The notes under the pieces were generated by a model. That model was not told the origin of the DNA, ran no database searches, and worked only from the letters and a program-made list of their open reading frames with translations. Positions 10,660-64,000 of a stretch of DNA of 64,000 nt are shown here, one piece after another. The stretch comes from Convolutriloba macropyga (taxonomy: Eukaryota), in the NCBI RefSeq assembly GCF_964194025.1, contig NC_134477.1:55614001-55678000 (forward strand), in the 5' to 3' direction. The stretch's first letter is position 1; each line of letters begins with the position of its first letter. The translations under genes were made by a program, and so were the position numbers.

Positions 10660-10717
10660 ACTTGAAGAACTTCAACGACTCATGATTTTTGTAGGGCTCT
10701 TTATATTACAAATTTAT

Positions 10718-23800: not shown

Positions 23801-23837
23801 GAACTAATTTTAGTAAAAATTAAGTCCTAAAAACAGA

Positions 23838-33918: not shown

Positions 33919-33982
<64 letters not shown>

Positions 33983-36090: not shown

Positions 36091-38136
36091 TACATCTCAA
36101 GAAACATCTGTCCGAACAAAGATTACCCTAGTGGTATGAAATTCCTTTGTCCAATAAAAGCCATCCCAGCTATAATCGACCCGCTCCGACCCGTTCTAGG
36201 TATCAAAAATCTAGCCCAAATTTGACCTTTCCCAAACTCCATGGTTCACTTCAGAAAATCAGTCATAAAAATGCCCCGTTCACTCCAAGTTTCTGCGCTG
36301 CAGGGTTTTTAAGCAGAGGAATCAACCTCCAAATTTTGAAGCACGTTGGAGCATTTAAAAAACTGAGTGACGGCGAGCAGCCGGAAATTTAACACTTTTC
36401 GAATCGCTCGAGTTCACTAATAATTCCCACAAAAAATCCCCAATTGAACCATTTTATAGCCCTAGAGCATTTTGCCGCTCACTCTTGACATCCCAGTACT
36501 CAAAAATCCTTTCAAAAATAATAAAAGCTGAGTTACGTCAAAAAATACTTAACCCTACTAAAGTGCGTTAAATTTGATAAAATTGTAGTGTAAATTTTAC
36601 CCTAAAGATATGCCAAAACCTGCTCCAAATACCTCCTACAGCTACCCCGCTGCAACCCACATGGTACGACCTCAAACAACCACTAAGACCGATAACTCCA
36701 AATATATGATGTAAAATGACGAAAAACCGAAAATCGCGCTTCCGCTTCAATTAATTGCACCAAAAATTTTGTTATTTATGTCATACATGACCCGATTGAT
36801 GCCACCTATGCTTCTACTAAAACAGAAAAAATTCCACTAGTTTAGTAGCACCATAAAATCCAGTTCCAGCTTACCCTATTACGAACCATGAAGTCCAAAT
36901 AAGCTCACAAATTGTCCCAATTTTGCCAGAAAAAATTCAGTTATTTCCCTCTAGAATCAAATATATTAAACTCTGACAAAAATTAATTATACCGACATAT
37001 TGCACACTTCCATATTTCTCAGAATATGCACTCCCAGCCTCCTAGTGCCAATACAAGCTGAGAAAAAACTCCCAAATTAACAAAAATGAAAAAAAAATTG
37101 TATGCAATTCTTGTAAAAAGGGATCAAAAATGTGTCTCAGTACCCAAATATGTCTAATATAATTGTTGATTCAATTAGTCCTACTAATGAGCAGTCCTGT
37201 CATAGCCATTTGAACCATTTTGACTAAGTTTAACAAAGCCCCATAACCAATAACCTATCCTTTACTTGAGAGCCATTTCAAAAACCCAGGTTCACTGCAG
37301 CAAAAACGTTATAACTCATGAAAAAAAGTTGAAACCACCCAAATTGTTGCGCTGCGGGCTTTTTAGTAAAGGCGATCAAGCGATTCACAATTTTGAGCTT
37401 GATCCAAGCAAATTAAAAATCGAGTGACGTCGAGGACCCTGATTTTGAAGACATTTTGAAAATTCACGAAAATGTTCATAAAATCTGCAATAATATCCAA
37501 AATCTGTTATAATTAGCCTAAAACATTTGTATGCTCAGGTTGCACACTCTCAAATTAAAAACATTGAAAATTGTTTCCTAAAATGTTGAAACATTAGTAA
37601 AAAAAACTCTAGCGAACCTACTCTCAATTTCGTCAAAATAGCACCAGATTTAGACCAGAAAACAGTTCCAAATGGTTATTTACGAGCCCATATTCAATAT
37701 TCTGTCTTCCTAGTAGTTGTCCTAACGTAGTCAACCCAAAAAATTAAACAAAAATGCAAAAATTTGAAAAAAATGACAAAAAATAAAATCTGCACATATT
37801 TTGTCAAATTCAGTCCAAAATTCTGGAGTGAAAAACTCAACATAATGACCTTAAATCATGCAACAAACTGCACCAGTAGTTGCCACTAACATAGTAGTCT
37901 AGTCACTAGATTGAGCACCCATTTTTGTTTAATGTCAATTATCTTCAGTCTATGTCGACTTATGCATCAAACATGACTGACACTTATGGCTGACACATGT
38001 CTTGAGAATGCTCCATTAGTGGAAAAATCATGCCCAAAAATTACCATTTTGGACTCAAAAATCAATGTTCGGATCCGATAAATTGTCCCAATCCCCAGAA
38101 TTCAGTGATTCAGGGGGGGGAGGGGGTTGGACCCCC

Positions 38137-38765
38137 ATGTATTAAGATAGGGTATAGCGTCTCTTCCAGGACTAGGGTCCTCCCTGATGTATTAAGATAG
38201 GGAATGAGTTTGCATGTATTAAGATTAGGTATAGCGGTCTTAATGTATTAAGATTATGTATAGGCTGCATGTATAACGATTAGGAATAGAATCTCCATGT
38301 CTTAAGATTAGGTATAGCCTCCATTTTTTAAGATTAGGTATAGCCGCCATGTTTTAAGATTAGGTTTAGCCGCCATGTATTAAGATTAGTTATAGCCTAC
38401 ACCAGGTATTAAGATTAGTTATAGTCGTCGACATGTATTAAGATTAGTTATAGCCGTCGACATGTGTTGAGATTAGTTATAGCCGTCGACAAGTTTTAAG
38501 ATTAGTTATAGCCGTCGTCATGTATTAAGATAAGTTGTAGTCGCCGACCTATTATAAGATTAATTATAGCCGCTGACATGTATTAAAATTAGGTATAGCG
38601 GTCTTAATGTATTAAGATTTTGTATAGGCTGCATGTATAAAGATTAGGAATAGAATCTCTGTATTAAGATTAGGTATGGCCGCTATGTATGAAGGTTAGT
38701 TATAGCCTGCACCATGTATTAAAATTAGTTATAGCCGTCGACATGTATTAAGATTAAGTATAGGA
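38137..38765 (+). repeat. Subterminal tandem repeats, ~25-30-bp unit
   Basis: atgtattaagattagttatagccgtcgac variants. Related arrays lie at 39355-39637 and, inverted, at 62785-63080. Confidence 0.95.
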
Positions 38766-39193
38766 TCAGGGTTATTTTTTGAAAAATTGTTGAGATTTTT
38801 ATACAATTTTGCATCCTTTTTGCTTTTCAAGCTAAATTTTGGCCAAATACTTGATTCTGATTGGTTGAAAATACCAGTTTAAAAAATCAAATGAGTTTAA
38901 ACAAGACAAAAACGCACACAGATTACACATTTGTCAAAAATACAATATAAAAACAAATAAATGTCATCAACATAGTACTTTACACTTTCGTCAGAGCGAA
39001 CAGTTTGCTATGTGGTGCAAGTTTTTAGCATTATAATGCAATAAAAAAATTCAAAATTACGCAAAAAAGATGTCAAACAGCATAAAATTTGCTAAATCGA
39101 ATCAAACTTTAAAAAAAATTTTACTGAAAATTAAATTTAAAAATTCACAATTTATCCTAGATGTTTTAAGATGAGCTTTAGCCGACATTAAAT

Positions 39194-39265
39194 AGCAAGA
39201 TGGCGCAGTGGTAGCGTGTTGGGCTCATAATCCCGAGGTCGGTAGATCGAAACTACCTCTTGCTA
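39194..39265 (+). tRNA. tRNA-iMet: Initiator tRNA-Met(CAT), anticodon stem mismatched
   Basis: AGCAAGA/TCTTGCT acceptor with A1:T72, CAT anticodon, GGTAG-ATCGAAA-CTACC T arm (initiator A54/A60). No adjacent T-run terminator. Confidence 0.9.
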
Positions 39266-40088
39266 ATCTGACATTGTCACAGTACTAGTGAACTCGTAAT
39301 CGCTCATAACTTGGAAAAATGTCAAATAATAGAAAAGCAAATGAACTAAAAAAGTTATAGCGTCTTTTTTTAGGATTTGGGTCCTTCCTAATGTATTAAG
39401 ATAGGGAATGAAATTGCAAGTATTAAGATTAGGTATAGCGGTCTTAATGTATCAAGATTATGTATAGGCTGCATGAATAAAGATTAGGAATAGAATCTCC
39501 ATGTAATAAGATTAGGTATAGCCTGCACCATGTATTAAGATTAGTTATAGTCGTCGACATGTATTAAGAATAGTTATAGCCTTCAACATGTATTAAGGTT
39601 AGTTATAGCCGTCGACATGTTTTAAGATTAAGTATAGAATCAGGGTTACTTTTTGAAAAATTTTTGAGATTTTTGTACAATTTAGCCTCCTTTTTGCTTT
39701 TCAAGTTAAGTTTTGATCACAAACTTGATTCTGATTTGTTGAAAATACCAGATTAAAAAATCAAATGAGTTGAAACAAGGCAAAGGCACACACAGGTTAC
39801 ACATTTAGCAAATATGCAAAAAAACAGTATAAAAACAATTAAAAGTGATCAACGAAAGAAAAGGTGACTAGTACTATAGAAGTTTTGTCAGAGTGAACAG
39901 TTTAATATGTCGTGCAAGTTTTTAGCATTAAAATACAATAAAAAGCTCAAAATTACGCAAAAGTGATGTCAAACAGCATAAAATCTGCTAAATCAAATCA
40001 AACTTTACAAAATTTTTACTGAAAACTAAATTCAAAATTTCACAATTTATCATAGATGTTTTAAGATGAGGTAGAGACAACATTAAAT

Positions 40089-40160
40089 AGCAAAATGGCG
40101 CCGTGGTAGCGTGATGGGGTCATAACCCAGAAGTTGGTAGATCGAAACTACCTCTTGCTA
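40089..40160 (+). tRNA. tRNA-iMet: Initiator tRNA-Met(CAT) copy, mutated (likely pseudogene)
   Basis: Same fold as 39194-39265, with an acceptor mismatch, A14>C in the A box and an altered anticodon arm. Confidence 0.85.
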
Positions 40161-41089
40161 ATATGACATTGTCACAGTACTAGTGAACTCGTAATCGCTC
40201 ATAACTTGGAAAAATGTCATATAATAGAAAAGCAAATGAAATAATTGAAAAATAACAGACACAGTATAAACTAAGCGCATTAAAATACATACTCAATCTA
40301 AGATTTACATTGAAAAATTATCAAGAAACTGAAAACTGAGGCACAATTACCCGAGTGGGTTAATAAAGTCGATAAAAAGAACAATTTGCGTAGATAACTG
40401 AGTAATAGTCACAATTCATTAGTCAGCATGATCCGTTTATTCTGTTTTCTGCACTAAATTAACATAGAAACAGGAGAACTACTACCCGCACTCAGAAAAC
40501 TAGTCTTAAAACGTGTTTAGTCGATTAGCTGGTCAGAATCTATGCTAAATATTTAGGAAAATGTTAATTTTATCAATTTAATGTATTTTGTGTCGTACAG
40601 CGCTCTTATCTATATGTTCTAAATGTACTAAGTTAAATACTTGATTCTGATTAGTTGTAACTACTGATCTTCATAAAATATATAAATTAAACCAGTACAA
40701 ATATAGAGAGCTTATAGTATGAGCAAAATTCAATGTAAAAACTACAGAATACAGATCAACAACTTATAAGTGCAATATAAATTTCGTCAGAGTGAACAGA
40801 TTGTTATTTGATGCAGATTTTCTCAATTATTATACAATGACAAAGCTCAAAATTACGCAAAACTGATATCGAATGGCATAAACTCTACTAAATTGAAGCA
40901 AACTTGAAAACTTTCAATTCTTTACTAAAACGAATAAAAAAGAAAAATTTTAATTTCACCCATCAAATTTAACCAATTTTGTTACAAATTAAAGACGATC
41001 GGAAAAAGACAGCTGAAAGACTAGTACACACAATTTCTTGTCAGCTAGTACAAAATGAGTTGATTCGAAACAAATTTTGTGAAGAAATG

Positions 41090-41630
41090 TGGCTCTCCAC
41101 GAGAATTTCTCAGGACAGGCAATGAAAGCAAAGGCTTTGCGCGCCCAGATCAATCATTCGTCTGCGTGATACAGCTGAGCTCGCAAAATCTAACAGAAGA
41201 AGTACAAAACTCATACAATAATCGTTGCGTATGGCATAAAATTTGTCTGTTCGAAGCATAAAATCTGTAAAAATTATAACTTGTTTTACAAAATCTCCCG
41301 GGAAAATCAAAAAACGATAGGTACTTGCCTACCAAATTCAACAAATTGTTCTTGAGACTAGACTGTCGACAAAAAGTTAGAGGAAAAGTGCTAAAACATT
41401 TCATGTCAATTAACAAGGTCTGGTAGTATTTTGGATACAGAGCAATGATAATTTTGTCTTCTTGCTACCGTGTTTAATCTGTTATATAGATAAGAAATTT
41501 CGGAGACAACTAAACTTTTATCAATTGATTACCAACGCAGAAACAAAAAACTAATGTCTGTTTTATAAAAGATTTTTAAGTAGAACGATTTTAGGTATCA
41601 AGAATGAACAATCTTCCAATTGATATTCTA
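41090..41630 (+). pseudogene. Decayed Polinton-type (retroviral-like) integrase
   Basis: Frameshifted pieces REFLR..GFAR/INH/CV/DTAELAKSNR, LSVRSIKSVKIITCFTK, VDKK and RMNNLPIDI recall the Polinton integrase pattern FAR.INEIW..DLA..LAK.N, WVDKG.EF, M.P.DV. Confidence 0.45.
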
Positions 41631-42299
41631 TTCTAGCTAAAAACAAGTAAAATTGATGAAAATTAGCTTTATTTTTGTTCAAGCTAGCCTAACAACAAAA
41701 TCATTGAAATGAAATGTACATACTTATTTCAAACTGTTAAGATAAACCAAGACAAAAATATTCCTACAATTGAGGATTTCGAATCAATTAAAATATCTTT
41801 AGCAGAATCCTAACATTTTTTCTTAGGTAATTTTTCTCTCCTTGACTGCTGCCAATAGTCTGATTCCAGCCAAATTTTAACATTAGTTTACAATAATAAT
41901 GTTAAAATTACTTGTTTTCAATGTTAGGCGGCAAAGGACGCTGAAAATTTACTAAATCAGTTAACAAAATAATTTAAGAATAAAATATAACAATAATTTT
42001 TTTTACAAATGCAACCAATCGACTATATGAAACTCATTTTCTTACAGAAATACTCACTAGCACTACTCAAAGCAGTTAACACCTAAATTTCGTAGTATAA
42101 AAAAATGTTATTGATAAATATATAATTAGATATCAATAAAAGTCAAGAACAACTATTGAAAACAATATTTTGCTAAAATTATAATGTCAACAGCAAAATC
42201 ACAATGTCAACAGCAAATCTTTTGTGTTAATTTATTGAGAAACTCAAATTGTCTCTGAAATGTCAAAAAAGCCTACCATAATCAGCGACTACTCATCCT

Positions 42300-42656
42300 C
42301 TAGAAAGATTGCAAGGATCGCCAATAGAGGGAAGCACTAATCACCCTATCTCTGTTTTTATCCAGTTCTTGTGATCCATATAGTTTAAAAGCCAACGTCT
42401 CCAATATCGAAAGATAGTCCCGGTCAAAATTCTCTGACTCATGAAATTTTGTAAGTTGTTCCATCTGTTTGTTTTCGTTTTCTTCCACTGATTCATTATT
42501 CTTCCTCGGAAGTTGCTGAGCAGGAAAGGAATAGGGAAAATTTTCCAACCGCATAGTTATATGCGTATTGTTCTTTGTTGTATAATTCTTAGAAAATTGA
42601 ATATTTACTCTTCTTCGTAAAGAATTCAGAATATACGAGAAAAGATAACGTCTCAC
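42300..42656 (-). CDS. Hypothetical element-borne protein (broken paralogs in each 1181-bp unit; inverted copy at 59857-60285)
   Basis: 118-aa ORF. The motif ETLAFKLY(G/R)SQEL recurs five times in the window. Confidence 0.4.
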   Translation of the reverse strand: MRRYLFSYILNSLRRRVNIQFSKNYTTKNNTHITMRLENFPYSFPAQQLPRKNNESVEENENKQMEQLTKFHESENFDRDYLSILETLAFKLYGSQELDKNRDRVISASLYWRSLQSF

Positions 42657-43199
42657 TGATGAAGAGTTTTATGGTTAATCTTGTTATATTTAGCAATCAA
42701 ATTTTGAACTTTCAGCATTTCAATGTGAGATTCAGCAAAAAAGTCATTCATTTCAAGATGAATTGATTAAAGCCTAAGAACAACGCTGAACAACTTAATC
42801 TTTAAGATGAGTTTAGTAAAATTGACTTAAACTGCGGAGCAACTCAATCTGAAAAAACAGGAAGTGTAATGATTTACGCTACCATGTAGTTTTGGGATCC
42901 TCGACGATGACTCATCACTTCCATATATGGAAATGACATCTTTTCTATTTTTAGAAACGAGCATCATGTTAGAACTTTCTAGAAGGCTGCAATTAACCAG
43001 ATTGCAACATTTCTTCATATAGTTAACTAATTTTTAGTTTAAAGGTAATACATTTAGTTATTTCATTCCGTGGCAAAAAATTCGAACTTTGCCTTTTTTT
43101 CTCATTTTCTTCTCACTCATATTTGTTGAACTGTACATGAATTTTCCTTTCCTACACAAATTATTTCACCAAAAAAAGCAACAGAAAATTTTGAATATA

Positions 43200-46100
43200 T
43201 GTAATCCAGTTTTGTGTATCTCAAGGATTGATAAGCTGCCAAGGATTGATTGATAAGCTGCCAAAAGTCTGACTCCAGCAAAAATTTAACATTAATTCAC
43301 GCTAATAATGCTTAATATCACTTGTTTTAAATGTTAGGCGGCAAAAGACGCTGAAAATTCACTAAATCAGTTAACAATATAATTTAAGAATAAAAAATAA
43401 CAAAAATTTTTTTTACAAATGCAACCAATCTGCTATATGAAACTCATTTTCTTGCAGAAATACTCACTAGCACTGCTCAAAGCAGTTAACACCTGAAATT
43501 CGTAGTATAAAAAAATGTTATTGAAAATTATATAATAAGATATCAATAAAAGTCAATTACAACTATTGAAAACAATATTTTGCTAAATTTAGAGTGTCAA
43601 CAGCAATATCACAAAGTCAACAGCAAATTTTTTGTGTTAATTTTTTGTAAATCTCAGTTTGTCTTTGAAATGTCAAAAAATCCTACCATAATCAGCGACT
43701 ACTCATCCTCTAGAAAGATTGCAAGGATCGCCAATAGAGGGAAGCACTAATCACCCTATCTGTGTTTTTATCCAGTTCTTGTGATCCATATAGTTTAAAA
43801 GCCAAGGTCTCGAATATCGAAAAATAGTCCCGGTTGAAATTTTCAGACGCATGAAAATTTGTAATTTGTTCCGTCTGTTTGATATCACTTTCTTCCACTG
43901 ATCAATTATCCTTCCTCGGAAGTTGCTGAGCAGGAAAGAAATAGAGAAAATTTTCCAAACCCATAGTTATATGCGTATTGTTCTTTGTTGTGTAATGCTT
44001 AGAAAATTGAATATTTACTCTTCTTTTTAAAAAATTGAGAATATACGAGAAAAGATGACTCACCACTTCAATATATGGAAATGACATCACTTCTATTTTT
44101 AGAAACGAGCATCATGTTAGAACTTTCTAGAAGGCTGCAATCAACCAGATTGCGACATTTCTTCATATAGTTAACTAATTTTTAGTTTAAATGTAATACA
44201 TTTAGTTAGTTTATTCCGTGGCAAAAAAATTCGAACTTTGCCTTTTTTGCTCATTTTCCTCTCACTCATATTTGTTAAACTGTACATGAATTTTCCTTTC
44301 CTACACGAATTATTTCACCAAAAAAGCAACAGAAAAATTTCTCTGTAAAAACTACTGATTCTTCTTGTATTTTGAATATAAGTATTCCGATTTTGTGTAT
44401 CTCAAGGATTGATAAGCTGCCAAGGATTGATTGATAAGCTGCCAAAAGTCTGACTCCAGCAAAAATTTAACATTAATTCACGCTAATAATGCTTAATATC
44501 ACTTGTTTTAAATGTCAGGCGGCAAAAGACGCTGAAAGTTCACTAAATCAGTTAACAATATAACTTAAGAATAAAAAATAACAAAAATTTTTCTTACAAA
44601 TGCAACCAATCTGCTATATGAAACTCATTTTCTTACAGAAATACTCACTAGCACTGCTCAAAGCAGTTAACACCTGAAATTCGTAGTATAAAAAAATGTT
44701 ATTGAAAATTACATAATAAGATATCAATAAAAGTCAATTACAACTATTGAAAACAATATTTTGCTAAATTTAGAGTGTCAACAGCAATATCACAAAGTCA
44801 ACAGCAAATTTTTTGTGTTAATTTTTTGTAAATCTCAGTTTGTCTTTGAAATGTCAAAAAATCCTACCATAATCAGCGACTACTCATCCTCTAGAAAGAT
44901 TGCAAGGATCGCCAATAGAGGGAAGCACTAATCACCCTATCTGTGTTTTTATCCAGTTCTTGTGATCCATATAGTTTAAAAGCCAAGGTCTCGAATATCG
45001 AAAAATAGTCCCGGTTGAAATTTTCAGACGCATGAAAATTTGTAATTTGTTCCGTCTGTTTGATATCACTTTCTTCCACTGATCAATTATCCTTCCTCGG
45101 AAGTTGCTGAGCAGGAAAGAAATAGAGAAAATTTTCCAAACCCATAGTTATATGCGTATTGTTCTTTGTTGTGTAATGCTTAGAAAATTGAATATTTACT
45201 CTTCTTTTTAAAAAATTGAGAATATACGAGAAAAGATGACTCACCACTTCAATATATGGAAATGACATCACTTCTATTTTTAGAAACGAGCATCATGTTA
45301 GAACTTTCTAGAAGGCTGCAATCAACCAGATTGCGACATTTCTTCATATAGTTAACTAATTTTTAGTTTAAATGTAATACATTTAGTTAGTTTATTCCGT
45401 GGCAAAAAAATTCGAACTTTGCCTTTTTTGCTCATTTTCCTCTCACTCATATTTGTTAAACTGTACATGAATTTTCCTTTCCTACACGAATTATTTCACC
45501 AAAAAAGCAACAGAAAAATTTCTCTGTAAAAACTACTGATTCTTCTTGTATTTTGAATATAAGTATTCCGATTTTGTGTATCTCAAGGATTGATAAGCTG
45601 CCAAGGATTGATTGATAAGCTGCCAAAAGTCTGACTCCAGCAAAAATTTAACATTAATTCACGCTAATAATGCTTAATATCACTTGTTTTAAATGTCAGG
45701 CGGCAAAAGACGCTGAAAGTTCACTAAATCAGTTAACAATATAATTTAAGAATAAAAAATAACAAAAATTTTTCTTACAAATGCAACCAATCTGCTATAT
45801 GAAACTCATTTTCTTACAGAAATACTCACTAGCACTGCTCAAAGCAGTTAACACCTGAAATTCGTAGTATAAAAAAATGTTATTGAAAATTACATAATAA
45901 GATATCAATAAAAGTCAATTACAACTATTGAAAACAATATTTTGCTAAATTTAGAGTGTCAACAGCAATATCACAAAGTCAACAGCAAATTTTTTGTGTT
46001 AATTTTTTGTAAATCTCAGTTTGTCTTTGAAATGTCAAAAAAACTACCATAATCAGCGACTACTAATCCTCTAGAAAGATTGCAAGGATCGCCAATAGAG

Positions 46101-46780
46101 GGAAGCACTAATCACCCTATCTGTGTTTTTATCCAGTTCTTGTGATCTATATAGCTTAAAAGCCAAGGTCTCAAATATCGAAAGATAGTCCCGGTTGAAA
46201 TTTTCAGACGCATGAAAATTTGTAATTTGTTCCGTCTGTTTGTTATCACTTTCTTTCACTGATCAATTATCCTTTCTCTGAAGTTGCTGAGCAGTTAAGA
46301 AATAGAGAAAATTTTCCAAACCCATATTTTTATGCGTATCGTTCTTTGTTGTGTAATGCTTAGAAAAATGAATTTTTACTCTTCTTTTAAAAAAATTGAG
46401 AATATACGAGAAAATATGACTCATCACTTCCATGTATGGAAATGACATCATTTCTATTTTTAGAAAGGAGCATCATGTTAGAACATTCTAGAAGGCTGAA
46501 ATTAACCAGATTGCGACATTTCTTCAAATAGTTAACTAATTTTTAGTTTATATATAGTACCTTTAGTTAGTTCATTCCGTGGAAAAAAATCGAACTTTGC
46601 CTTTTTTTCTCATTTTCCTCTCACTCATATTTGTTAAACTGTACTTGAATTTTCCTTTCCTACACAGATTATTTCAACCAAAAAAAACAACAGAATTTTT
46701 TTTTCAAAAATTACCAATTGTTCTAGTATTTTGAATAGATGTAATCCAAACTTGTGTATCTCGAGGATTGATAAGCTTTA
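43200..46780 (+). repeat. Three tandem ~1181-bp units, plus a diverged partial unit at 41845-43200
   Basis: aaggattgataagctgcc anchor at ~43223, 44404 and 45585, with a partial match at 46763. Confidence 0.97.
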
Positions 46781-47055
46781 CTGTCTGAGATCAAATATAT
46801 TTTTATTGAAAATAGAAAAAATCGCATAAATGTGGTTTTAAAACAACCACAGAGAGATCAAGAAAAAGTTTCCATCTATTATTGAAGAACAATTTTACGT
46901 TGTACAACTTAACGTTGTTGTAATAGAACCTCCCATCCAGTTAGACTTCAGTTTTTGAATCTAATTCTCAAGATAAACGAAATCATTTTATGCATTGCTT
47001 TCTCTATTTTGATTTTTTTTAATATCAACAGGGTTTTACTTGATACTTTATTCAT

Positions 47056-47720
47056 TTGTCAAAAATGTTGATCAAGAATCACGTACAACTTTTGGAAAAA
47101 ATATACAAAAGGAAGGACGGAATCCCTGATGCTTACAGAGTAGACGAAATTGATGTTGATTCTTACTTCTTTTACAATTTTTTGGACGTTTTTCTCAAAC
47201 AACAGAATCATCCGATTTTAAAGGATTTGAATATGCGACCTTCTCCATCGAAGAATTCGAGTATGATTACGAGTATGATTCGAGTATTCGAGTATGATTC
47301 GAGTATGATTATGACTACATAACAAAACAATCTTTCGTTTTATCGTCAGAACTACACATCAACAAGTATGAAATGCTTTTAATATTGAATTTTGTCCCAG
47401 AAATTATGCAACAATACAGAAATCTGTCTCAGTCTAATTTTATACCAACTCCCCAACCAGTAACCAGTAGTTCATCTCTGCAGAGGGCTCTGTTCTTTCA
47501 TTATTACAAGGACTACAATGAAGAGGGGGAGAGAGTACGATTTGGAATACGACTCCCCAACATTTATATATAAAAATTTAGTTGCAAATTTGGAACATTT
47601 TGCGAGTTAGATTTGAGATTTAACAAGATGAAGAGAATTTATCAAAGCTTGACTGTTTTGGTCAATTACGTCAACTCATTTCCTCTAACTTATCCATCTT
47701 TGGCTGTTAATTAGGATAAC
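47056..47720 (+). pseudogene. Frameshifted hypothetical ORF; inverted paralog at 59090-59660
   Basis: EIDVDSYFFYNFLDVFL and YEMLLILNFVPEIMQQYRNLS..RVRFGIRLPNIYI are shared between the arms. Confidence 0.5.
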
Positions 47721-48052
47721 ACGTGAAAAAGCTGCCTTTTTAGTCCATTATTCAGTATTGAGCTTACCTGTTTCGTTTAGTATTGTTAGATTTTCTATGA
47801 GTTGATTCCTTCTTTGGTAACTTCAGAACTGATGCATTTCTTTTTCTGGATAAAAACGTCACTTTTTCTGCTAAAAATTACCCTTTTTGCAAACTTTGTT
47901 CTCATTGGTTGCAGTTTAGTATAAATAGAGCTGAAAAACTCAACCAACATCACTTGTTTTCTCTTCTCTTCAAACAACATTACCTCTGTCTCAACTACCT
48001 TTGACTCTAATCCTTCTTCTCATCTCAACACATTGAGAAGTGGAATTTACAG

Positions 48053-48227
48053 ATGCAGAACAACACCCTTCTCTACTCAGTTCCTTTCACAGAGGGGACT
48101 GCTCGGATAAGCATCAGAGACTTGTCGAATGGGCTCTACGGGTCTGTTGTAACCATGCCTTTTACAGTGTGGCACATTAATGAGCACCAGCGACAACAGT
48201 TTGACACATATCATCAAGGACAGGTTC
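48053..48227 (+). CDS. N-terminal 58 aa of a 239-aa ORF interrupted by the nested Gypsy
   Basis: Joins in frame to 55594-56138 once the element and one TSD copy are removed. The empty-site paralog reads QGQVPITE at 58547-58570 (minus). Confidence 0.75.
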
Positions 48228-53200: not shown

Positions 53201-54169
53201 TGATTTGCCGTGTTAGTATCAAAATTTAATTGGCTGTATGCGTACTTCAAATCTAGCGTAGAAAAATATGTTGTGTTTTGCGACGCGGGACATGACTATG
53301 TTGTGTTTTGCCGAGAAATGAATTCGATAAGATGTCAATTTTTGGCATCTGATATTTGTTCTTGTGAATGGTTCTATTTAATATTTTTGAAACGAGTGTA
53401 AGCTTTATCGTTTGATCTTTCTTTACGGTGACCACTATTGGTGATATGAAATATTTATCAGGACAACTTGAAATTTTTATTATATGTTTTGCGTCTAACA
53501 ATTTCTTAATCACGTTATTGACTTTTTCTTGTAAGTTAATTGGAATACGTCTACCTTTTTGATGTCTAGATTGAATTTTTTGTGAAACTGAGATTTTTCC
53601 ACATGATTTTTAGGTCTTCCGATGCGAGATATCAGTTCTGGAAAAGTTTTTGCGATTTGTTCTTTAAATTCTGGCGATGAAAAAATGTTGTTGTTGCGAT
53701 TACTTTTATGAGATGTAGATTGTGTCACTGCTAATCCGAGTTGATCAAACAAGTCACGGCCAATTAGAGATTTTTGTCCATCAGCTACAACAGTGAATGT
53801 TGCTGAAACACAAGTCCATCCGTTGCTTGTGATTGGAGATTGTATCTTTCTTTCGACCTGGATTGGTTCTTTCGTGAAAGTCCGAAGTTGCGGGGACGTC
53901 TTTTCGCTGATCCAGAAGGCGCGAGGACTACTTTGCGAAACTTGTGATTCTAGTGAACGATTAAGAATACTAAATGCGCTACCGGTGTCCACGAGCAGTG
54001 TATTATTAATATTACCGGTCTTGATGAGCATGTTGAGGGGTTCTACTTTCTCTACTGCATTCTCGATCATCGCAACCGTGTTATCCTCCCCGATACTATA
54101 GTCCCATTCATAGAGCTTAGCTGGTTGTAGGAAATTCACTGAATCCTCGGGATGCGGTTCTTCTTCCAC
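50291..54169 (-). pseudogene. pol: Gypsy pol (PR, RT, RNase H, INT), fragmented
   Basis: LLVDTGS, FISPIVVTVKKDQTIKL, MPAEFQKAM..FCFLDDILI, ERYSVNE, IHSSHPG..CWWP, HGIPRSIRL, GLVERLIRTIK, SPFEANFGRKP. Confidence 0.95.
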
Positions 54170-54179
54170 AATGTTTACC

Positions 54180-55199
54180 GTCTTTTTCTGAGAGTTTTGT
54201 GGCTTTGCATTCTTTTGTTTTCTGCAAACTTTCGCAAAATGAATTAAAAGTCAGCAATTGTTGCAGGTTTTACCTTTTGCGATACATTTATCACGATGAT
54301 TTGGAAGCCAAATTCCTACTCAGTTGGAACAACAGGGTGTGAAGCGGTTGTTTTGTCTTGGAAATTTATTCGGGTTTTGCCAATTCGGGTTTCGAGAGCT
54401 GTTAGGGAACTGGACTGCGTTGAAACTAGCCAGGATGACAATCTTGTTATGCTGCTCAATTTGATGTTGATTGTGCATCCCAAGTTCCAAGTCAATTGCT
54501 AGCTCTAATGCCTGACGTGGATAAACTGTTTGTTTGAGTAGTTCCTTTTGAATATCAGGGTCTATTAGGTTAGTAATGAAGACATCGCGTATCAAAGTCT
54601 CTTCTTTTTTTTCGAAATCGTCAATTCCTTTAGCTTACCGTTGAAGTGTTTTACTGTTTCTCCCCGGAGTCGTTTCGTATTTAGGAAAACATGACTGCCA
54701 AAAATTTTGTTGCGAGGACAGATGATTGCCTCTTCCTCGATCCTCCAGAATCTATGGTGGTAAGGGTATCAATCATGATATGCGGGTTTTTGCAGTTGAG
54801 AATGCAACGTTCTTCCACCCCAATGCTTACATAGAGTAGAGACACGGTTTTGCGATTCGCAAGTGGCCACAATTTGTCGCCACACATTATGCCGACTTCA
54901 ATTAGACGTTGGCATTTGTTTTGCCAATTCATCTCTTGTTGCGCATGGGGAGCTTTCCTTTCTCTCTCCGATTGTGCAGAAGAGCCAACTATAGTTTCCT
55001 CGTATACTGGTTCAAGTGGAAGGTCCACCATCTCGGGTTTGGGTCCAAGTAACGTATCGAGAATGATATTCTCTTTTGCCGATAGTGCCAATTTATATTG
55101 CACTCTCCATTTCTCCTGGCAAAGAGGAGGGTCGGGTGTAGGTTTATCCCAGGAAGCGTCTATTCCGAGAGGTGTACGCTTAGCTGCTGACTGCGCCAT
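54180..55199 (-). pseudogene. gag: Gag with CCHC zinc knuckle, frameshifted
   Basis: MAQSAAKRTPLG..., IRDVFITNLIDPDIQKELL, CIAKGKTCNNC*LLIHFAKVC. Confidence 0.9.
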
Positions 55200-55588
55200 G
55201 TCGTACTCTATATAAATATAGTAGCTACTCGCGATGCGGGTGCGTTTACTATTGCTTAAATTGTGATTCGCGGAGCGAAATCCTGACTTGAGTATCTTGT
55301 GCTTACTCGCGGAGCGAGATTACAAAGAGAATTGTTCAACTAGTATTGAATTGCGAAACTTGAAGAATGAACTGAAGTGCTTATAAACGAATCTAGTACG
55401 CGTGATCAGACATGTTTGATCACGAAGCACCAAACCAAGAAAGGAAGTATTGAACTGATCATAAGATACGAAGTGAACAAATATGAATTAAATGATGAAG
55501 GGCAAATAAATTGAACTAATTTAAGGGCATCTTATAAAAGAGTACTGCATCAAATAAAAAACAAAGGATGATATCCTTGGGTGTCACA
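55199..55588 (-). repeat. 5' LTR (390 bp)
   Basis: About 90% similar to the 3' LTR by eye, with ~117 extra internal bp. Confidence 0.95.
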
Positions 55589-55593
55589 GGTTA

Positions 55594-56138
55594 CAATCAC
55601 GGAGAATCAGCTGGGAACTCACACAATGGGTCACAAAGTTGCTGTGATCAGTGGGCATCACTATCTTCACGTTAATGGAACAGATTTTCCCGACAACTAC
55701 GTTGCTGGAAGCATTCAGTACACATTTTTATGGGAGGAAGGGCAGATTCCCGAAAACTGGTTCAATACACCCGAGACAAGTCAAGTATTCAGTCCAGAAT
55801 CACAAAACAAACTTCTCCAGATAGTGAGCAATGCAGGCAGCAGTGAACAAAGCGAATTGAGTGTAGATACTAGCACCACGTGCTCATTTAACGATCAGGA
55901 AAACTTCGATCCAGATCAGTATTATGATTCGACTAATATTTCAACTACTTCATCAATGACAACTCCCTCCATAGAGGATGGAACAGCTCATAATCCAATT
56001 GTGCTGACTGATGAAGCTCCGATAACTCCCATCAGTGTTCGACCTACAGAACCGCTAGCAATCGTTGAAAGAGTCCGATCATTTGTCAATGAAATTCAAA
56101 ACTTGCCAGATTATGTTGTGAGAACTCTCTTTGAGTAA
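55594..56138 (+). CDS. C-terminal part of the interrupted 239-aa ORF (acidic, S/T/P-rich tail)
   Basis: Open frame of 180 codons in AT-rich DNA, in frame with 48053. Confidence 0.7.
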
Positions 56139-56429
56139 ATTTGATATTGTAAATTTTATTATTGAATTCTTTTAAAGTACTTTGTGATGTATTTACAGTT
56201 TTGTTTGAATTGATAAGTTGAACTATTTCCTTACTCCAAATACTATGCAGGCTATGTTCAAACAAAACACAGCAACGTTTGTCAAATTTTTATAAACAGT
56301 TTTCGATAAATTCTGCTTCTTAACAAAAAAAGTCGATTTAAAAATTTATTTTTAAGAAAAAAACTGAAATATTTTTTCGATTTTTATTAAAAAAACCTTG
56401 TTTTGAAAACTGATATTTATTAAAAATAA

Positions 56430-58506
56430 AAAGTTCGCAAGTTTTCATTTAAAATGTATTGAAAATTTCTTCTTTTTGCTTAAAATCATATCGTATAATG
56501 AAGAAAAATAAATATTTTTGGGTTTTTGAATAACATATTTTAAATTTTTTCGATATTTAAGAAAATTTTTTATGAAAAAAATTTGATATTTAAGAGAAAT
56601 CGTTGAAAACCTTTACGATTTTAAAGGGAAAACTTTGAATAGATTTTTGATTTTTAACAAAAAAGTTGTCTCAATTTTCCATTTTAAATGAGCCACTTTT
56701 TTGTAAAATTGATTTTTAACAATAAGTCAAAATAAGACAATAGATCAAAATATAAAAACAGATACAAATAAAAAAACTCAAACAAGAAATTAAATACGCT
56801 ATTTTCGAATTTCAAGATACAAATAAAGATTATCAAATATGCCATGACCATCTAACAAACAATCAACAACCTTTATAAATTCACTCTCATACTTTGAGTT
56901 TCTAAGGGAATGGATTCTATCTAAAAACGATGATCCAAGGGTTTGAGTACTCGCATTTCTTTGTTCAGCGCGTAGTATGTAACGCTTGATCTTCTTCCTA
57001 CTCAATCGTTTTTTGGAGATTGTGGGTACTTTTTCCGTGTACTTATTCTCCAAGTTGCACTCCACCGCTCTGGTTAACTGGGTAAAGACCAGTCCTGACT
57101 CTTATATAATGGAAGCAAACAACTGATATTTAAAGAGTGTGTACAAGCAATTGACTGTTTGACAAAAATAAGACAAATTTTCTATTTTTTCTAGTATCTC
57201 CTTCACTGAGGATGAAATGAGAATAATGTAGTAGCGACAAGTCTTTATTGGACAAAAATTGTCGTTATGAGTAGCAACGGAGTATTTTTTAGTGCGCAGA
57301 TAAAGTTTTTACCCCTTAACTGATACAGAAATGAATAATGTGTTGTCGTTATATTTTCTGTAAAATGGAGTTAAAATCTGATACATTATTGCTGACACAA
57401 TATCGGGATAACAGAATAAAACAAATATATGGAAACAAAAAATACGGTAACGTAACTTTCTATTTTTAGAGGTAATAATTTCTGTTTCGATAAAAATAGA
57501 AAATTACGTTACCGTACTTTTTGTTTCCATATATAGTTTCTATTCTGTTGTCCCAATATAGAAATGGCAGAAATAATGTGTCAGGTTTTACCTCAATTTT
57601 ACAGAGATTATAACGACAAAACATTATTCAGTTCTCTATCAGTTAAGGAGTATAAACCTTATTTAATCGTTAAAAAATACTCCGTTGCAACTCATAACGA
57701 GAATTTTTGTCCACTAAATACTTATCGCTAACACATTATTCTCATTTCATCCTCAGTGAAAGAGATACTAGAAAAATTAGAAAATTTTTCTTATATTTAT
57801 CAAACAGTCGATTGCTTGTACACACTCTATAAATATCAGTTCTTTGCTTCCATTATAGAAGAGTCAGGACTGGTCTTTACCCAGTTAACCAGAGCGGTGG
57901 AGCACAATTTGGAGAATAAATACGTGGAAAAAAAACCAGTATCTCCAAAACCGATTGAGGAGGAAGAAGTTCAAGCGTCACCTACTACGCGCTAAACAAA
58001 GAAATGGGAGAAATCAAACCCTTGTATAATTGTTTCTAGATAAAAATCATTCCCTTAGAGAATCAAAGTATGAGAGTGAGTTTATAAGGATTGTTGATTG
58101 TTTGTTAGATGGTCATGGCAAAATTGATAATCCTCTTTTGTATCTTGATATCAGAAAATAACGTATTTAAATTCTTGTTTGTATTTTTTTTTTGTATTTG
58201 TTTTCATATTTTGAAGTAACATATTGATAAAAATCAATTTTACAAAAAAGTTTTTTTCTTAAAAATCGAAAATTGAAACAACTTTTTTTGTTAAATTTGG
58301 AAAAAATTTTCAAAGTTTTCTCTTAAAAGTCGAAAATTTTTTCAAAGTTTTCTATTAAATATCAAATTTTCAGTCAAAACTTTATTTAAATGTCGAGAAA
58401 ATGTTCAAAATGTGTCATTCAAAAACGTAAAAATATTCATTTTACGGTATGATTTTGTGCAAAAAAAGAAGTTTTGTTTACATTTTCAAATGACAACGTT
58501 TGAACT
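56430..58506. repeat. Central ~2.1-kb inverted repeat with a 22-bp spacer (57469-57490)
   Basis: tacggtaacgtaactttctattttta / taaaaatagaaaattacgttaccgta. Mirrored ORFs at 56799-57065(-) and 57756-57995(+). Confidence 0.95.
56799..57225 (-). pseudogene. Hypothetical ~140-aa gene with one stop; mirror copy at 57735-58161 is frameshifted
   Basis: VKEILEK.EN.SY..QTV.CLYTL.KYQ.FASII.ESGLVFTQLTRAVE.NLENKY is shared by both copies. Confidence 0.5.
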
Positions 58507-61500
58507 ACATTTGAAAATGCCACACTAATAGGCATGGTTACAACAGACTCCGTGATTGGAACCTGTCCCTGCTGATATGTGTCAAATTGTTGTCGCTGGT
58601 GCTCAATAATGTGCCACACTGTAATAGGCATGGTTACAACAGACTAGTAGAGCCCATTCGACAAGTCTCTGATGCTTATCTGAGCAGTCTCCTCTGTGAA
58701 AGAAACTGAGTAGAGAAGGCTGTTGTTCTGCACTGTAAATTCCATTTCTCAATCTGTTGAGATGAGAAGAAGGATTAGAGTCAAAGGTAGTTGAGACAGA
58801 GGTAATGTTGTTTTAAGAGAAGAGAAAGCAAGTGATGTTGGTTGAATTTTTCAGCTCAATTTATTCTAAACTGCAACCAATGAGAACAAAGTTTCCAAAA
58901 AGGGCAATTTTTAGCAGAAAAAGTGATGTTATTATCCAGAAAAGGAAATGCATCAGTTCTGAATTTACCAAAAAAGGAATCAACTCATAGAAAATCTAAC
59001 AATACTATACGAAACAGGTAAGCTCAATACTGAATAGTGGACCAAAAAAGGTAACTTTTTTACGTGTTATCCTAATTAACAGCCAAAGATGGATAAGTTG
59101 GGAGAAATGAGTTGACGTAATTGACCAAAAAAGTCAGGCTTTGATAATTTCTCTCCATGTGGTTAAATCCCAAATTTTTCATCAAAAATTTTTCAAAATT
59201 CGCTCTAAATTATTGTATATAAATGTTTGGGAGTCGTATTCCAAATCGTACTCTCTCCCACTCTGCATTGTAGTCCTGGTGATATAGAACGAACAGCGCA
59301 CTCTGCAGAGATGAAGAAATTGTTACTGGTTGGGGAGTTGGTAAAAAATTAGACTCAGACAGATTTCTGTACTGTTGCATAATTTCTGGGACAAAATTCA
59401 ATATCAAAAGCATTTCATACTTGTTGATGTGTAGTTCTGACAATAAAACGAAAGATTGTTTTGTTATGTAGTCATCATACTCGAATTTTTCGATGGAGAA
59501 GGTTGCATATTCAAATCCTTTACTAATTCGGATGATTCTGTTGTTTGAGAAAAACGTCCAAGAAATTGTAAAAGAAGTAAGAATCAACATCAATTTCGTC
59601 TACTCTGTAAGCATCAGTGATTCCCTCCTTTCTTTTGTATATTTTTTCCAAAAGTTTTAAGTGATAAGAAATGATGTCATTTCCATAAATGAAAGTTATG
59701 AGTCATCGACGAGCACCCCAAAACTACATAGGAGCTTAAATCATTACACTTTCTGTTTTTTCATATTGAGTTGCTCCGCAATTTACGTGAAATTTACTCA
59801 ACTTAAAGATTAAGTTGTTCCGCATTGTTTTTAGGCTTTAATCAATTTATCTTGAAATGAATAACTTTTTTGTTAACTCTCACATTGAAATGCTAAAAGT
59901 TCAAAATTTGATTGCTAAATATGACATGATTAACCAAAAACTCTTGATTAGTGAGACTTTATCTTGTCTCGTATATATTCTCAATTCTTCACGAAGAAGA
60001 GTAAAGATTCATTTTTCTAATCATTATACAACAATGAACAATACGCATACAACTATGAGTTGGAAAAATGTTCCCAATTCCTTTCCTGCTCAGCAACTTC
60101 CGAGGAAGGATAATGGATCAGTGCAAGAAAGTGATAACAAACAGACAGAACAACTTACAAAATTTCATGAGTCTGAGAATTTCGACCGGGATTGTCTTTC
60201 GATATTGGAGACGTTGGCTTTTAAACTATATGGATCACAAGAATTGGTTAAAAACACAGATAGGGTGATTAGTGCTTCCCTCTAATCGCGATCCTTGCAA
60301 TCTTTCTAGAGGATGAGTAGTCGCTGATTATGGTAGGCTTTTTTGACATTTCAGAGACAAACTGAGTTTCTCAATACATTAAAACAAAATATTTGCCGTT
60401 GACTTTGTGATTTTGCTGTTGACTTTCTAAACTTAGAAGAAATATTGTTTTCAAAAGTTGTACTTGATTTTTTTGATATCTAATTATTATATTTTTTCAG
60501 TAACAATTTTTTATACTACGAAATTTAGGTGATAACTGCTTTGAGCAGTGCTAGTGAGTATTTCTGTAAGAGAATGAGTTTCATATAGTAGATTGGTTGC
60601 ATTTGTAAAAACAATTTTTGTTATTTTTCTTTTCCTAAATTATATTGTTAACTGATTTAGTAAATTTTCAGCGTCTTTTGCCGCCTAACATTTAAAACAA
60701 GTGATATTAAGCATTATTAGTGTGAATTAATGTTAAATTTTTGCTGGAGTCAGACTTTTGGCAGCTTATCAATCAATTCTTGGCAGCTTATCAATCCTTG
60801 AGATACACAAAAATGGGTTAGATATATTCAAAATACTAGAACAATCGGTATTTTTTACAGAGAAAATTTTCTGTTGCTTTTTTGGTGAAATAATTTGTGT
60901 AGGAAAGGAAAATTCATGTACAGTTTAACAAATATGAGTGAGAGGAAAATGAGAAAAAGAGGCAAAGTTCGAATTTTTTGCCACGGAATGAACTAACTAA
61001 ATGTTTTAGCACTTTTCCTCTAACTTTTTGTCGACAGTCTAGTCTCAAGAACAATTTGTTGAATTTGGTAGGCAAGTACCTATCGTTTTTTGATTTTCCC
61101 GGGAGATTTTGTAAAACAAGTTATAATTTTTACAGATTTTATGCTTCGAACAGACAAATTTTATGCCATACGCAACGATTATTGTATGAGTTTTGTACTT
61201 CTTCTGTTAGGTTTTGCGAGCTCAGCTGTATCACGCAGACGAATGATTGAACTGGGCGCGCAAAGTCGTTTGCTTTCATTGCCTGTCCTGAGAAATTCTC
61301 GTGGAGAGCCACATTTCTTCGCAAAATTTGTTTCGAAGCAACTCATTTTGTACTAGCTGACAAGAAATTGTGTGTACTAGTCTTTCAGCTATCTTTTTTT
61401 AATCGTCTTTAATTTTTAACAAAATTGGTTAAATTTGATGGGTGAAAATAAAATTTTTCATTTTTTATTCGTTTTAGTAAAGAATTAAAATTTTTCAAGT

Positions 61501-62261
61501 TTGCTTCAATTTAGTAGAGTTTATGCCATTTGATATCAATTTTGCGTAATTTTGAGCTTTGTCATTGTATAATATTTGGAAAATCTGCATCAAATAACAA
61601 ACTGTTCACTCTGACGATATTTATATTGCACTTGTAAGTTGTTGATCAGTATTCTGTAGTTTTTATATTGTATTTTGCTCATTTTTTAAGCTCTCTATAT
61701 TTGTACTGGTTTATTTAATTTATTTAATGAAGGTCAGCATTTTCAACCAATCAGAATCAAGTAATTAACTTAGTCTAGAACATATAGAAAAGAGCGCTCT
61801 ACGCCACAAAATACATTAACTTGCTAAAATTAACATTTTCCTAAATAATTAGCATAGATTCTAACCAGCTAATCGACTAAGCACGTTTTATGACTAGCTT
61901 TTTTAGTGCGGGTAGTAGTTTTCCTGTTTCGATGTAAATTTAGTGCAAAAAACAGAATAAACAGAACATGCTGACTAATGAAGTCGATATTATTTTTTTA
62001 ACAATTGTGACTCTTACTCAGTTAGCTACGCAAGTTTATCATTTTATCGACTTTATTAACGCACTCGGTTAATTGTGCCTCAGTTTTAAGTTTCTTGATA
62101 CTTTTTCAATGTAAATCTTAGATTGAGTATGTATTTTATTGTGCTTAGTTTATACTGTGTCTATTATTTTTTAATTTTTAGTTCATTTGCTTTTCTATTA
62201 TTTGACATTTTTCCAAGTTATGAGCGATTACGAGTTCACTAGTACTGTGACAATGTCATAT

Positions 62262-62333
62262 TAGCAAGAGGTAGTTTCGATCTACCAACTTCTGGGTTAT
62301 GACCCCATCACGCTACCACGGCGCCATTTTGCT
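62262..62333 (-). tRNA. tRNA-iMet: Initiator tRNA-Met(CAT) copy in the right arm, identical to 40089-40160
   Basis: Exact reverse complement of copy 2. Confidence 0.85.
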
Positions 62334-64000
62334 ATTTAATGTTGTCTCTACCTCATCTTAAAACATCTATGATAAATTGTGAAATTTTGAATTTAGTTTT
62401 CAGTAAAAATTTTGTAAAGTTTGATTTGATTTAGCAGATTTTATGCTGTTTGACATCACTTTTGCGTAATTTTGAGCTTTTTATTGTATTTTAATGCTAA
62501 AAACTTGCACGACATATTAAACTGTTCACTCTGACAAAACTTCTATAGTACTAGTCACCTTTTCTTTCGTTGATCACTTTTAATTGTTTTTATACTGTTT
62601 TTTTGCATATTTGCTAAATGTGTAACCTGTGTGTGCCTTTGCCTTGCTTCAACTCATTTGATTTTTTAATCTGGTATTTTCAACAAATCAGAATCAAGTT
62701 TGTGATCAAAACCTAGCTTGAAAAGCAAAAAGGAGGCTAAATTGTACAAAAATCTCAAAAATTTTTCAAAAAATAACCCTGATTCTATACTTAATCTTAA
62801 AACATGTCGACGGCTATAACTAACCTTAATACATGTTGAAGGCTATAACTATTCTTAATACATGTCGACGACTATAACTAATCTTAATACATGGTGCAGG
62901 CTATACCTAATCTTATTACATTGAGATTCTATTCCTAATCTTTATACATGCAGCCTATACATAATCTTGATACATTAAGACCGCTATACCTAATCTTAAT
63001 ACTTGCAATTTCATTCCCTATCTTAATACATTAGGAAGGACCCAAATCCTAAAAAAAGACGCTATAACTTATCTTATTACAAGGGTTTCCTCACCCCCCG
63101 CGGAGTTTCGCTCACCTATATACTACTCAGTGACAACTTTTAAGACTCCAATGTTGACGATTCAAAAATACCCGGGTTTAGATCACCAGAAATGTCATAA
63201 CTTTTTGAAAAAATTCCATTTCACGCCAAAGTTTTGCAAAAATTCAATTAAAAAACGTTTTAAAACCTAAATTCATAGCATAGTCGTTCCCCACCGATGT
63301 TTAATAAGTAGGCCAAGCAAAAAAAATTGCTCGAATATGAATAAAAATTTAGAATTTCACATGTACCACCTGTATTGTCGCCGAAAAATGACCAAAATTA
63401 GGACAAAATTGCAAACAAAAATTAGTATCAAATACACTTCCAAACCAGCTCAAATCACTCAATAGCTACTAGCAACCAGGGCAAATGTCTAGAACCATTA
63501 TAACCAGTTTACAACCATTATTTCACAAGTAAAGTAAAGTTATTGCTCAAAATGGAAAAAAGTCAACTACTATACATGTTCTCTTACAAATATGTCATTA
63601 TACACCTATACTACTTCATGAAAACAATACCACATGCTCACATGAAACACAGCTAATAGTTTCACCAGCAAACACTAAACATAATTGTCTGAGTTAAAAG
63701 ATATCAATGCATAACTCACCTATGAATAACAATATACTACATGATGATAAGAATTGCACCGACAATAGTCAATTCTCATCGGCGCTATCCTTTCCTACAG
63801 CACCATAGATTTCCGCTCATTTTATACTCAAAAGGCAGACAAATTCCCAAAGCTAGTGAAAAAAAATGAAAAGGTAAACTCAAGAGCTCGTGCTAAAAGT
63901 GCTGAAAATCGTTTTATTAGACAACTTCCTTTCTCCCCGAAGAGAACCTTACGAGACAAAATGAAGGATATTAAAAGAAAGAAGCTCCTGGTCTTGATAA

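What the first reader, a model, noticed from the sequence alone, without database searches (positions are those of the whole stretch)
38109..63127. 25-kb snap-back (whole-palindrome) Polinton-like element
Seen: the element is not just bounded by TIRs. Nearly all of 57491-63127 is a reverse-complement copy, with deletions and rearrangement, of blocks in 38113-57468: central block, ORF blocks, 1.18-kb unit, integrase 5' part, tRNA and subterminal repeats. The right end is AGTAGT and CAGTGA flanks both sides, although the left terminal ~28 bp are missing. Known: Polintons have AGTAGT or AGAG termini, 6-bp TSDs, a retroviral-like integrase and protein-primed replication. Inference: one end of a Polinton folded back to give a defective snap-back genome with two origins and no polB or capsid, which then integrated, analogous to defective interfering viral genomes.
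Basis: partly seen in the sequence, partly recalled or inferred. Interest (0 to 1): 0.85.

Follow-up and report, generated by a model that had tools for sequence, protein, structure and literature searches.

The report
Snap-back defective Polintons of genome-length size
This is a broken virus-like transposon (Polinton) made of one end plus its mirror image, one of many such mirror-image copies in this genome that are all about as long as the intact element, which may mean they had to fit inside a viral capsid to spread.

Summary
The palindrome is real, and it belongs to a family. 5,555 of the 5,637 right-arm bases have an inverted match in the left part. The axis is a 6-bp inverted repeat with a 22-nt loop that already exists in the intact parent. 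Contigs from 3 of 4 public runs span it. The same genome holds complete Polintons of this family (B-family polymerase, integrase, packaging ATPase, protease, double-jelly-roll capsid).

Of 34 two-ended copies sharing one terminus, 7 are whole palindromes and 3 have multi-kb inverted arms. I mapped 14 distinct axes; four recur at two loci. Axes lie within 1.3 kb mid-element. All 47 terminus pairs span 14.2 kb or more, and the shorter cores carry larger minisatellite padding. That suggests length selection, possibly capsid packaging. A local hairpin-rich zone is a partial confounder.

Corrections: 7.4 kb of the 25 kb is a nested Gypsy LTR element, so the element proper is 17.7 kb. The left CAGTGA is not a clean TSD: about 62 bp of host repeat is missing there. 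The 'integrase 5' part' is unsupported. I found no report of snap-back Polintons in eight searches.

The parts
38103..38112 (.). Left junction: CAGTGA plus 4 filler bases. Likely the scar of a ~95-bp deletion (62 bp host repeat, left target copy, TIR tip) next to the G-tract; not a clean TSD
   Evidence: the deletion reading is inference
38113..39352 (+). Outer left-end block: TIR remnant with G-tract, 29-bp minisatellite (38213-38763), tRNA-Met-like gene (39194-39265); about 11% diverged from the inner copy
39352..41847 (+). Inner left-end block of the decayed end arm: minisatellite 39420-39637, tRNA 40089-40160. The stretch 41040-41850 has no significant integrase similarity
41848..46777 (-). 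1.18-kb tandem units (about 4 copies; three compared, 1-4% apart) holding a faint trace of a polymerase N-terminal region (E 5e-4 to 0.02)
46778..48227 (+). Broken accessory ORFs, colinear with the middle of complete Polintons
48228..55587 (-). Nested Gypsy-type LTR retrotransposon with 5-bp target duplication (1 mismatch) and a 919-bp 99.7% duplication at one LTR; absent at the homologous site of the right arm, so inserted after the fold-back
55588..57496 (+). Rest of the left arm, colinear with complete Polintons up to reference position 9366
57463..57496 (.). Fold-back junction: TTTTTA (57463-57468), 22-nt loop (57469-57490), TAAAAA (57491-57496); the same inverted repeat is present in the unfolded parent
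   Evidence: spanned by run contigs
57491..63127 (-). Right arm: inverted copy with deletions and a permuted unit; tRNA 62262-62333, minisatellite 62785-63002, intact AGTAGT terminus
63128..63133 (.). CAGTGA, the target hexamer in the host repeat

Best explanation
This is a non-autonomous Polinton derivative made of one end arm and its inverted copy, likely formed when a nascent strand folded back on a 6-bp inverted repeat and copied itself to the terminus, and likely replicated and integrated in trans by the complete Polintons of the same genome. SHOWN: palindromic layout; a junction hairpin pre-existing in the parent; sister arms; no polymerase, capsid or family integrase gene; complete relatives; 14 distinct axes; four axes and one asymmetric junction each found at two loci; 6-bp TSDs on sibling palindromes; later Gypsy insertion. 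INFERRED: strand-displacement replication stalls, the 3' end folds back, and the hairpin is converted to a two-origin duplex. Helper polymerase and integrase then act in trans. Ends were re-copied later (arm distance rises from 2% near the ends to 16% at the axis), and the left end was deleted after insertion. INFERRED WITH LOWER ODDS (about 0.4): only near-genome-length products persisted because they had to be packaged.
For: Arms and coverage. Junction stems of 6 bp or more at 7 of 14 axes versus 25 of 300 random positions, p=6e-5; this element has a 6-bp stem with 22-nt loop, another a 10-bp stem with 18-nt loop. Window arms are sisters at 100/100 and 97/94 in 2 of 3 trees. Sibling palindromes with both termini: 7 of 9 have perfect 6-bp TSDs, 1 has 5 of 6, 1 has no match. 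The same axis occurs at C12:29.03M and C5:4.21M with different TSDs. Complete relatives: 19 of 34 pairs have the canonical layout; rve E 7e-12, Pox_A32 2e-5, Peptidase_C5 0.005; polymerase motifs and DNA_pol_B_2 clusters at 0.96-0.97; capsid model matches PBCV-1, Sputnik and mavirus MCP at E 1e-13 to 7e-11. The axis is spanned by contigs of runs X1, X2 and X4 with about 5% differences from the assembly.
Against: This copy has no clean TSD and no second copy with its axis was seen (40 of 581 scored), so its mobility as a palindrome is inferred from siblings. The third tree does not resolve the arms as sisters. Arm distances are uneven (2.0, 5.6, 9.6, 7.7, 15.8%), which a single event does not explain. 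7 of 14 axes have stems of only 3-5 bp, which is chance level, although they were scored on a younger reference copy. The four runs are one study, at most 3 samples, contigs only. No extrachromosomal DNA or particle was observed.
Confidence: 0.8

Rival explanations
1. Same fold-back origin, but the mid-element axes and near-constant length come from where folding happens (a hairpin-rich zone, or forks from both ends meeting in the middle), not from capsid selection.
For: Short inverted repeats are about 4-fold denser at reference 8-9 kb (227 vs 41-93 per kb elsewhere for 6-bp stems). Mean axis position 9233 is near the midpoint 9560. Derivatives of an 18-kb parent may simply not have had time to shrink. 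Minisatellites can expand after insertion.
Against: 9 of 14 axes lie at 9.0-9.9 kb, where density is only 90 per kb. The end arm itself is hairpin-rich (112-118 per kb) yet gave no short palindromes. Three asymmetric junctions have break points far from the middle (5912|11625, 11600|6082, 10638|~5760) but means of 8.2-8.8 kb, p about 0.004 under a uniform null. None of 47 terminus pairs is under 14.1 kb. Core length and minisatellite length are anti-correlated, rho -0.58, p 0.009, n=19 non-independent copies.
Confidence: 0.45
2. An integrated copy underwent a host chromosomal inverted duplication (fork template switch at short inverted repeats) and never existed as a free palindrome.
For: The same junction signature is described for yeast chromosomal inverted amplifications (PMC4689423, passages). 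This copy lacks a clean TSD and a sibling with its axis.
Against: The inversion stops exactly at the AGTAGT terminus. The flanks are not inverted and continue one host repeat. Sibling palindromes have perfect TSDs and recur at separate loci.
Confidence: 0.07
3. Two separate Polinton copies inserted or recombined head to head.
For: Arms are up to 16% apart at the centre, similar to their distance from other copies. The outer left block is 11% from the inner one. End-arm swapping between copies does occur: the junction at reference 10638 is shared by polymerase-bearing and double-arm copies.
Against: Arms group together in 2 of 3 trees. The break points are 28 bp apart on a pre-existing hairpin. 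There is no internal terminus or TSD at the axis.
Confidence: 0.08
4. Assembly artefact (fold-back chimeric reads).
For: Four sibling palindromes break at 200-N gaps shortly after the axis, so palindromes do trouble this assembly.
Against: Arms differ by 2-16%. The Gypsy insert is in one arm only. The flanks are not mirrored. Contigs of three runs span the axis with their own substitutions.
Confidence: 0.02

Closest known systems
Polinton/Maverick elements (polintoviruses)
   Same: AGTAGT termini, TIRs and 6-bp TSDs (termini and TSD length as family marks are recalled from Kapitonov and Jurka 2006, not read here). The parent family encodes PolB, DDE integrase, ATPase, protease and DJR capsid (PMC6431247, PMC4028283, passages).
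   Different: This copy encodes none of the core genes, and its inverted repeat covers the whole element.
[quoted passage not shown]
   Same: One genome end plus its reverse complement, symmetric or with a loop, helper-dependent (PMC8235507, PMC13506859, passages).
   Different: Here they are 15-23 kb, integrated in the host genome with TSDs, inherited and re-mobilised. Interference with the helper is untested.
polB-less mobile polintons and polintons with 2-kb coding TIRs in butterflies (bioRxiv 10.1101/2025.02.07.637071, passages)
   Same: Mobile despite loss of polB; end sequence duplicated as long inverted repeats; polB replaced by other DNA.
   Different: Those keep capsid and ATPase genes and have 2-kb TIRs. 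In the passages read there are no whole palindromes, hairpin junctions or length argument.
Helper-dependent adenovirus genomes with a packaging size window (27.7-37 kb; PMC5609467, passage)
   Same: Non-coding filler keeps a gutted two-ITR genome near full length. Here, 18 of 19 two-ended derivatives are 14.2-20.5 kb against a canonical median of 18.4 kb.
   Different: That system is engineered and measured; here packaging is only inferred from lengths.
Chromosomal inverted amplification at short inverted repeats (ODIRA, PMC4689423, passages); also Foldback transposons and yeast linear-plasmid hairpin derivatives (both recalled, not retrieved)
   Same: Junction on a short inverted repeat with a short loop; long inverted arms.
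   Different: Here it is bounded by Polinton termini and derived from a protein-primed-type replicon.

Membership tests
Polinton/Maverick (parent family in this genome) | B-family (protein-primed type) DNA polymerase | tested here: met
   1456-aa ORF in complete copies; Exo and A/B/C-like motifs (motif patterns recalled); Atlas clusters with DNA_pol_B_2 at 0.96-0.97. No polymerase hit in Pfam, PHROGs or PDB sequences. Protein priming itself untested.
Polinton/Maverick (parent family in this genome) | Retroviral-like DDE integrase | tested here: met
   rve E 7e-12; 1,685 homologues.
Polinton/Maverick (parent family in this genome) | Packaging ATPase, adenain-like protease, double-jelly-roll major capsid protein | tested here: met
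   Pox_A32 E 2e-5; Peptidase_C5 E 0.005, below its curated cut-off; capsid model pLDDT 66.6 matches PBCV-1, Sputnik and mavirus MCP. The minor capsid label for the 280-aa ORF is by position only.
Polinton/Maverick (parent family in this genome) | TIRs with AG-type termini and 6-bp TSD | tested here: met
   39 two-ended elements: 32 perfect 6-bp TSDs, 5 with one mismatch, 2 without a match.
Autonomous Polinton (the window element itself) | Encodes polymerase, integrase and capsid module | tested here: not met
   No tblastn hit for ATPase, integrase, capsid or protease; only a faint polymerase N-terminal trace. The rve hit belongs to the nested Gypsy.
Non-autonomous Polinton derivative (the window element) | Family termini and internal homology to complete copies | tested here: met
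   Right terminus intact; 84-88% identity to complete copies over the central block. Left tip lost.
Non-autonomous Polinton derivative (the window element) | 6-bp TSD at this locus | tested here: inconclusive
   CAGTGA on both sides, but about 62 bp of the host repeat is missing between them in 26 of 27 paralog comparisons.
Snap-back defective genome | One end plus its reverse complement from a single template, joined at a short loop | tested here: met
Snap-back defective genome | Helper-dependent propagation | tested here: inconclusive
   Shared axes at separate loci with different TSDs for siblings; no second copy of this axis seen; replication not observed.
Defective interfering particle | Encapsidation and interference with the helper | not testable with these tools
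   Only indirect length evidence.

The most novel reading that the evidence does not exclude
This genome preserves a fossil population of Polinton defective interfering genomes: repeated snap-back and arm-swap products of one parasitic end arm. They were filtered to roughly 75-115% of helper length by capsid packaging and padded with minisatellites and tandem units. This would be genomic evidence that an animal-type integrase-bearing Polinton passes through a virion stage when it transposes.
Probability: 0.4. Interest if true: 0.85.

Novelty: new variant of a known kind. Interest (0 to 1): 0.7.

Why it matters
Whether integrase-bearing Polintons really form particles has been argued from conserved capsid genes (PMC4028283, passages). 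Non-autonomous DNA transposons normally shrink (established knowledge). Here the gutted copies stay genome-length by doubling one end, as packaged defective viruses do. The hairpin junctions also record how these elements replicate, which is otherwise inferred only from the polymerase type. Unique axis junctions give ready markers for finding free or encapsidated genomes in natural tissue. Palindromes of 15-20 kb also break assemblies and may be missed in repeat libraries.

Tried and rejected
Integrase remnant at 41040-41850: no integrase family in six frames, no tblastn hit, profile E 0.14 (best sibling arm 0.036, best of 120 shuffled frames 0.35); rejected as unproven. Clean CAGTGA TSD: rejected by paralogous empty sites. 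An intact source of the decayed end arm: 83 matches, longest open frame 160 aa, none intact (150 of 466 candidates scored). A second copy with this axis: none among 40 of 581 candidates. Short two-ended derivatives: no partner terminus within 10 kb in 20 of 28 listed unpaired loci examined, none within 1.5 kb in 30 loci. 135 of 229 listed termini remain unpaired and mostly unexamined. A single-sequence fold of the capsid protein failed (pLDDT 31.5) and was redone with an alignment. Accessory ORFs have no Pfam family. Opposite-strand joints were not interpreted, because the arms cross-map. Literature: eight searches on Polinton or snap-back terms (listings, plus passages of the papers cited) gave no report of snap-back Polintons. 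Searches were for analogues. Most subscription papers are not covered; the adenovirus defective-DNA paper of Daniell and Mullenbach 1978 was seen as a reference title only. Earlier scan findings: none. Rows left out: C5:54.1M (complex) and C15:28.6M (distant) are not among the 14 axes; palindromes lacking two termini are not in the length table.
Full report
OBSERVATION. The self-comparison confirms inverted copies of 39352-41401, 41848-42946, 47078-48227 and 56432-57468 in 57491-63127. 5,555 of 5,637 right-arm bases are covered. The centre is TTTTTA, a 22-nt loop (57469-57490), then TAAAAA. The right end is an AGTAGT terminus with 38 exact genomic copies and 0 control matches. Three tRNA genes, 29-bp minisatellites and 1.18-kb units are as described.

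THREE CORRECTIONS. First, 48228-55587 is a Gypsy-type LTR element with a 5-bp target duplication. It is missing at the homologous site of the right arm, so it came later and the element proper is about 17.7 kb. Second, both flanks belong to one host repeat. In 26 of 27 paralog hits the left-flank end lies 55-70 bp upstream of the site that begins the right flank, which reads CAGTGA in most of them. The simplest reading is one ~95-bp deletion beside the G-tract. Two separate deletions that kept a true TSD copy are also possible, since no paralog has G at that position of the upstream hexamer. Third, the supposed integrase remnant is not supported.

PARENT FAMILY. Terminus searches led to complete elements. 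They have a 1456-aa B-family polymerase (no polymerase hit), an rve integrase, an A32-like ATPase and a weakly scoring adenain-like protease. A 444-aa protein's model matches double-jelly-roll capsids. Of 39 two-ended elements, 32 have perfect 6-bp TSDs, 5 one mismatch and 2 none. The window's left arm is colinear with these elements from the polymerase start region to reference position 9366. In place of the polymerase it carries a decayed end arm of about 4.7 kb with no intact source found and only a faint polymerase N-terminal trace.

A FAMILY OF FOLD-BACKS. All 34 pairs among the 100 listed of 105 hits for a second terminus were read: 19 canonical, 5 with one end replaced or deleted, 3 with 5-7 kb inverted arms around a spacer, and 7 whole palindromes. 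Twenty of 28 unpaired termini gave 4 more palindromes. Eight further loci, chosen because they held the decayed arm (a biased set), gave 5 more simple or rearranged ones plus a complex one and a distant one. Fourteen distinct axes were mapped. Four recur at two loci, including C12:29.03M and C5:4.21M with different TSDs, so palindromes moved as palindromes. Every palindrome doubles the decayed arm; none doubles the polymerase or capsid end. This is unexplained, and a stronger origin or packaging signal in that arm is a guess. Copies with polymerase plus a decayed arm share a junction with double-arm copies, showing recombination with helpers.

MECHANISM. The best short inverted repeat at the break points in the parent is 6 bp or more at 7 of 14 axes, against 25 of 300 random sites. 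Loops are 3-127 nt, except one of 271. In trees the window's arms are sisters in two of three segments and unresolved in the third; arms also pair within most other palindromes. I infer fold-back priming during strand-displacement synthesis, conversion to a two-origin duplex, and replication and integration in trans. Arm distance rises from 2% near the ends to 16% at the axis. This suggests an old axis with later end re-copying, which is inferred. Contigs from 3 of 4 runs (one study, two samples) span the axis with about 5% differences, which argues against an assembly artefact.

LENGTH. Among 229 listed termini, 47 inward-facing pairs under 60 kb span 14.2-35.0 kb, 45 of them 14.2-23.8 kb. 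Canonical median is 18.4 kb; palindromes are 15.7-23.3 kb, median 17.7. Axis means lie at 8579-9871 of an 18.9-kb reference, with probability below 1e-5 under a uniform null even counting only 7 axes. Three asymmetric junctions have off-centre break points but mid-range means (p about 0.004). Minisatellite length is 1.1 kb or less in all 20 canonical copies but up to 6.2 kb in derivatives, and is anti-correlated with core length (rho -0.58, n=19). Against: the 8-9 kb zone is about 4-fold richer in short inverted repeats, axes sit near the midpoint where forks would meet, copies are not independent, arrays may grow after insertion, and 135 termini are unpaired. I put packaging selection at about 0.4.

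COMPARISON AND NOVELTY. It works like a snap-back defective viral genome (PMC8235507, PMC13506859; passages) and is a non-autonomous member of a Polinton family, not an autonomous Polinton. Mobile polB-less polintons and 2-kb coding TIRs are reported in a preprint (10.1101/2025.02.07.637071; passages). A packaging window is known for helper-dependent adenovirus (PMC5609467; passage). Eight searches found no account of integrated snap-back Polintons; the library omits most subscription papers and no supplements were read. Verdict: new variant of a known kind, interest 0.7.

Noticed in passing
window 39194-39265, 40089-40160, 62262-62333; L136:931-1005, L137:8103-8177: tRNA-Met (CAT) genes sit near the ends of both defective and complete Polintons (found in 18 of 25 loci scanned). 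They look initiator-like by recalled features. One complete copy has an identical gene in both TIRs.
   Followed up: partly
G000:C15:28.56-28.58M (L289-L290): A distant subfamily (67-74% to the reference) also has 3.6-kb inverted arms at 94.8% and at least four 1.18-kb tandem units, suggesting the same process in another lineage.
   Followed up: partly
G000:C4:17165626-17182838 and C9:32595047-32609544: Copies that keep the polymerase end but have the integrase and capsid module replaced by the decayed arm.
   Followed up: partly
window 38113-39352 versus 39352-40244: The left end is a tandem of two end blocks 11% apart, while the inner block is 0.8% from the right arm; possibly an end from another copy.
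   Followed up: partly
window 56900-58100: Summed contig depth reaches 10,000-30,000 in some bins against 24-35 for the locus-specific contigs, hinting at a much larger family than the termini show; not a copy number.
   Followed up: no
window 10721-18257 and 20164-26576: A ~2-kb tandem repeat (about 3.8 copies, 92-94%) and a further ~2.6-kb duplication.
   Followed up: no
window 5000-8500 (-) and about 28000-36500 (+): Other decayed LTR-retrotransposon-like sequence: RT_RNaseH at E 7e-14 and a weak integrase zinc-finger hit.
   Followed up: partly
G000:C9:3809803-3856366 and C4:15837246-15892549: TSDs match a more distant terminus rather than the nearest one, suggesting nested or rearranged neighbouring copies.
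   Followed up: no
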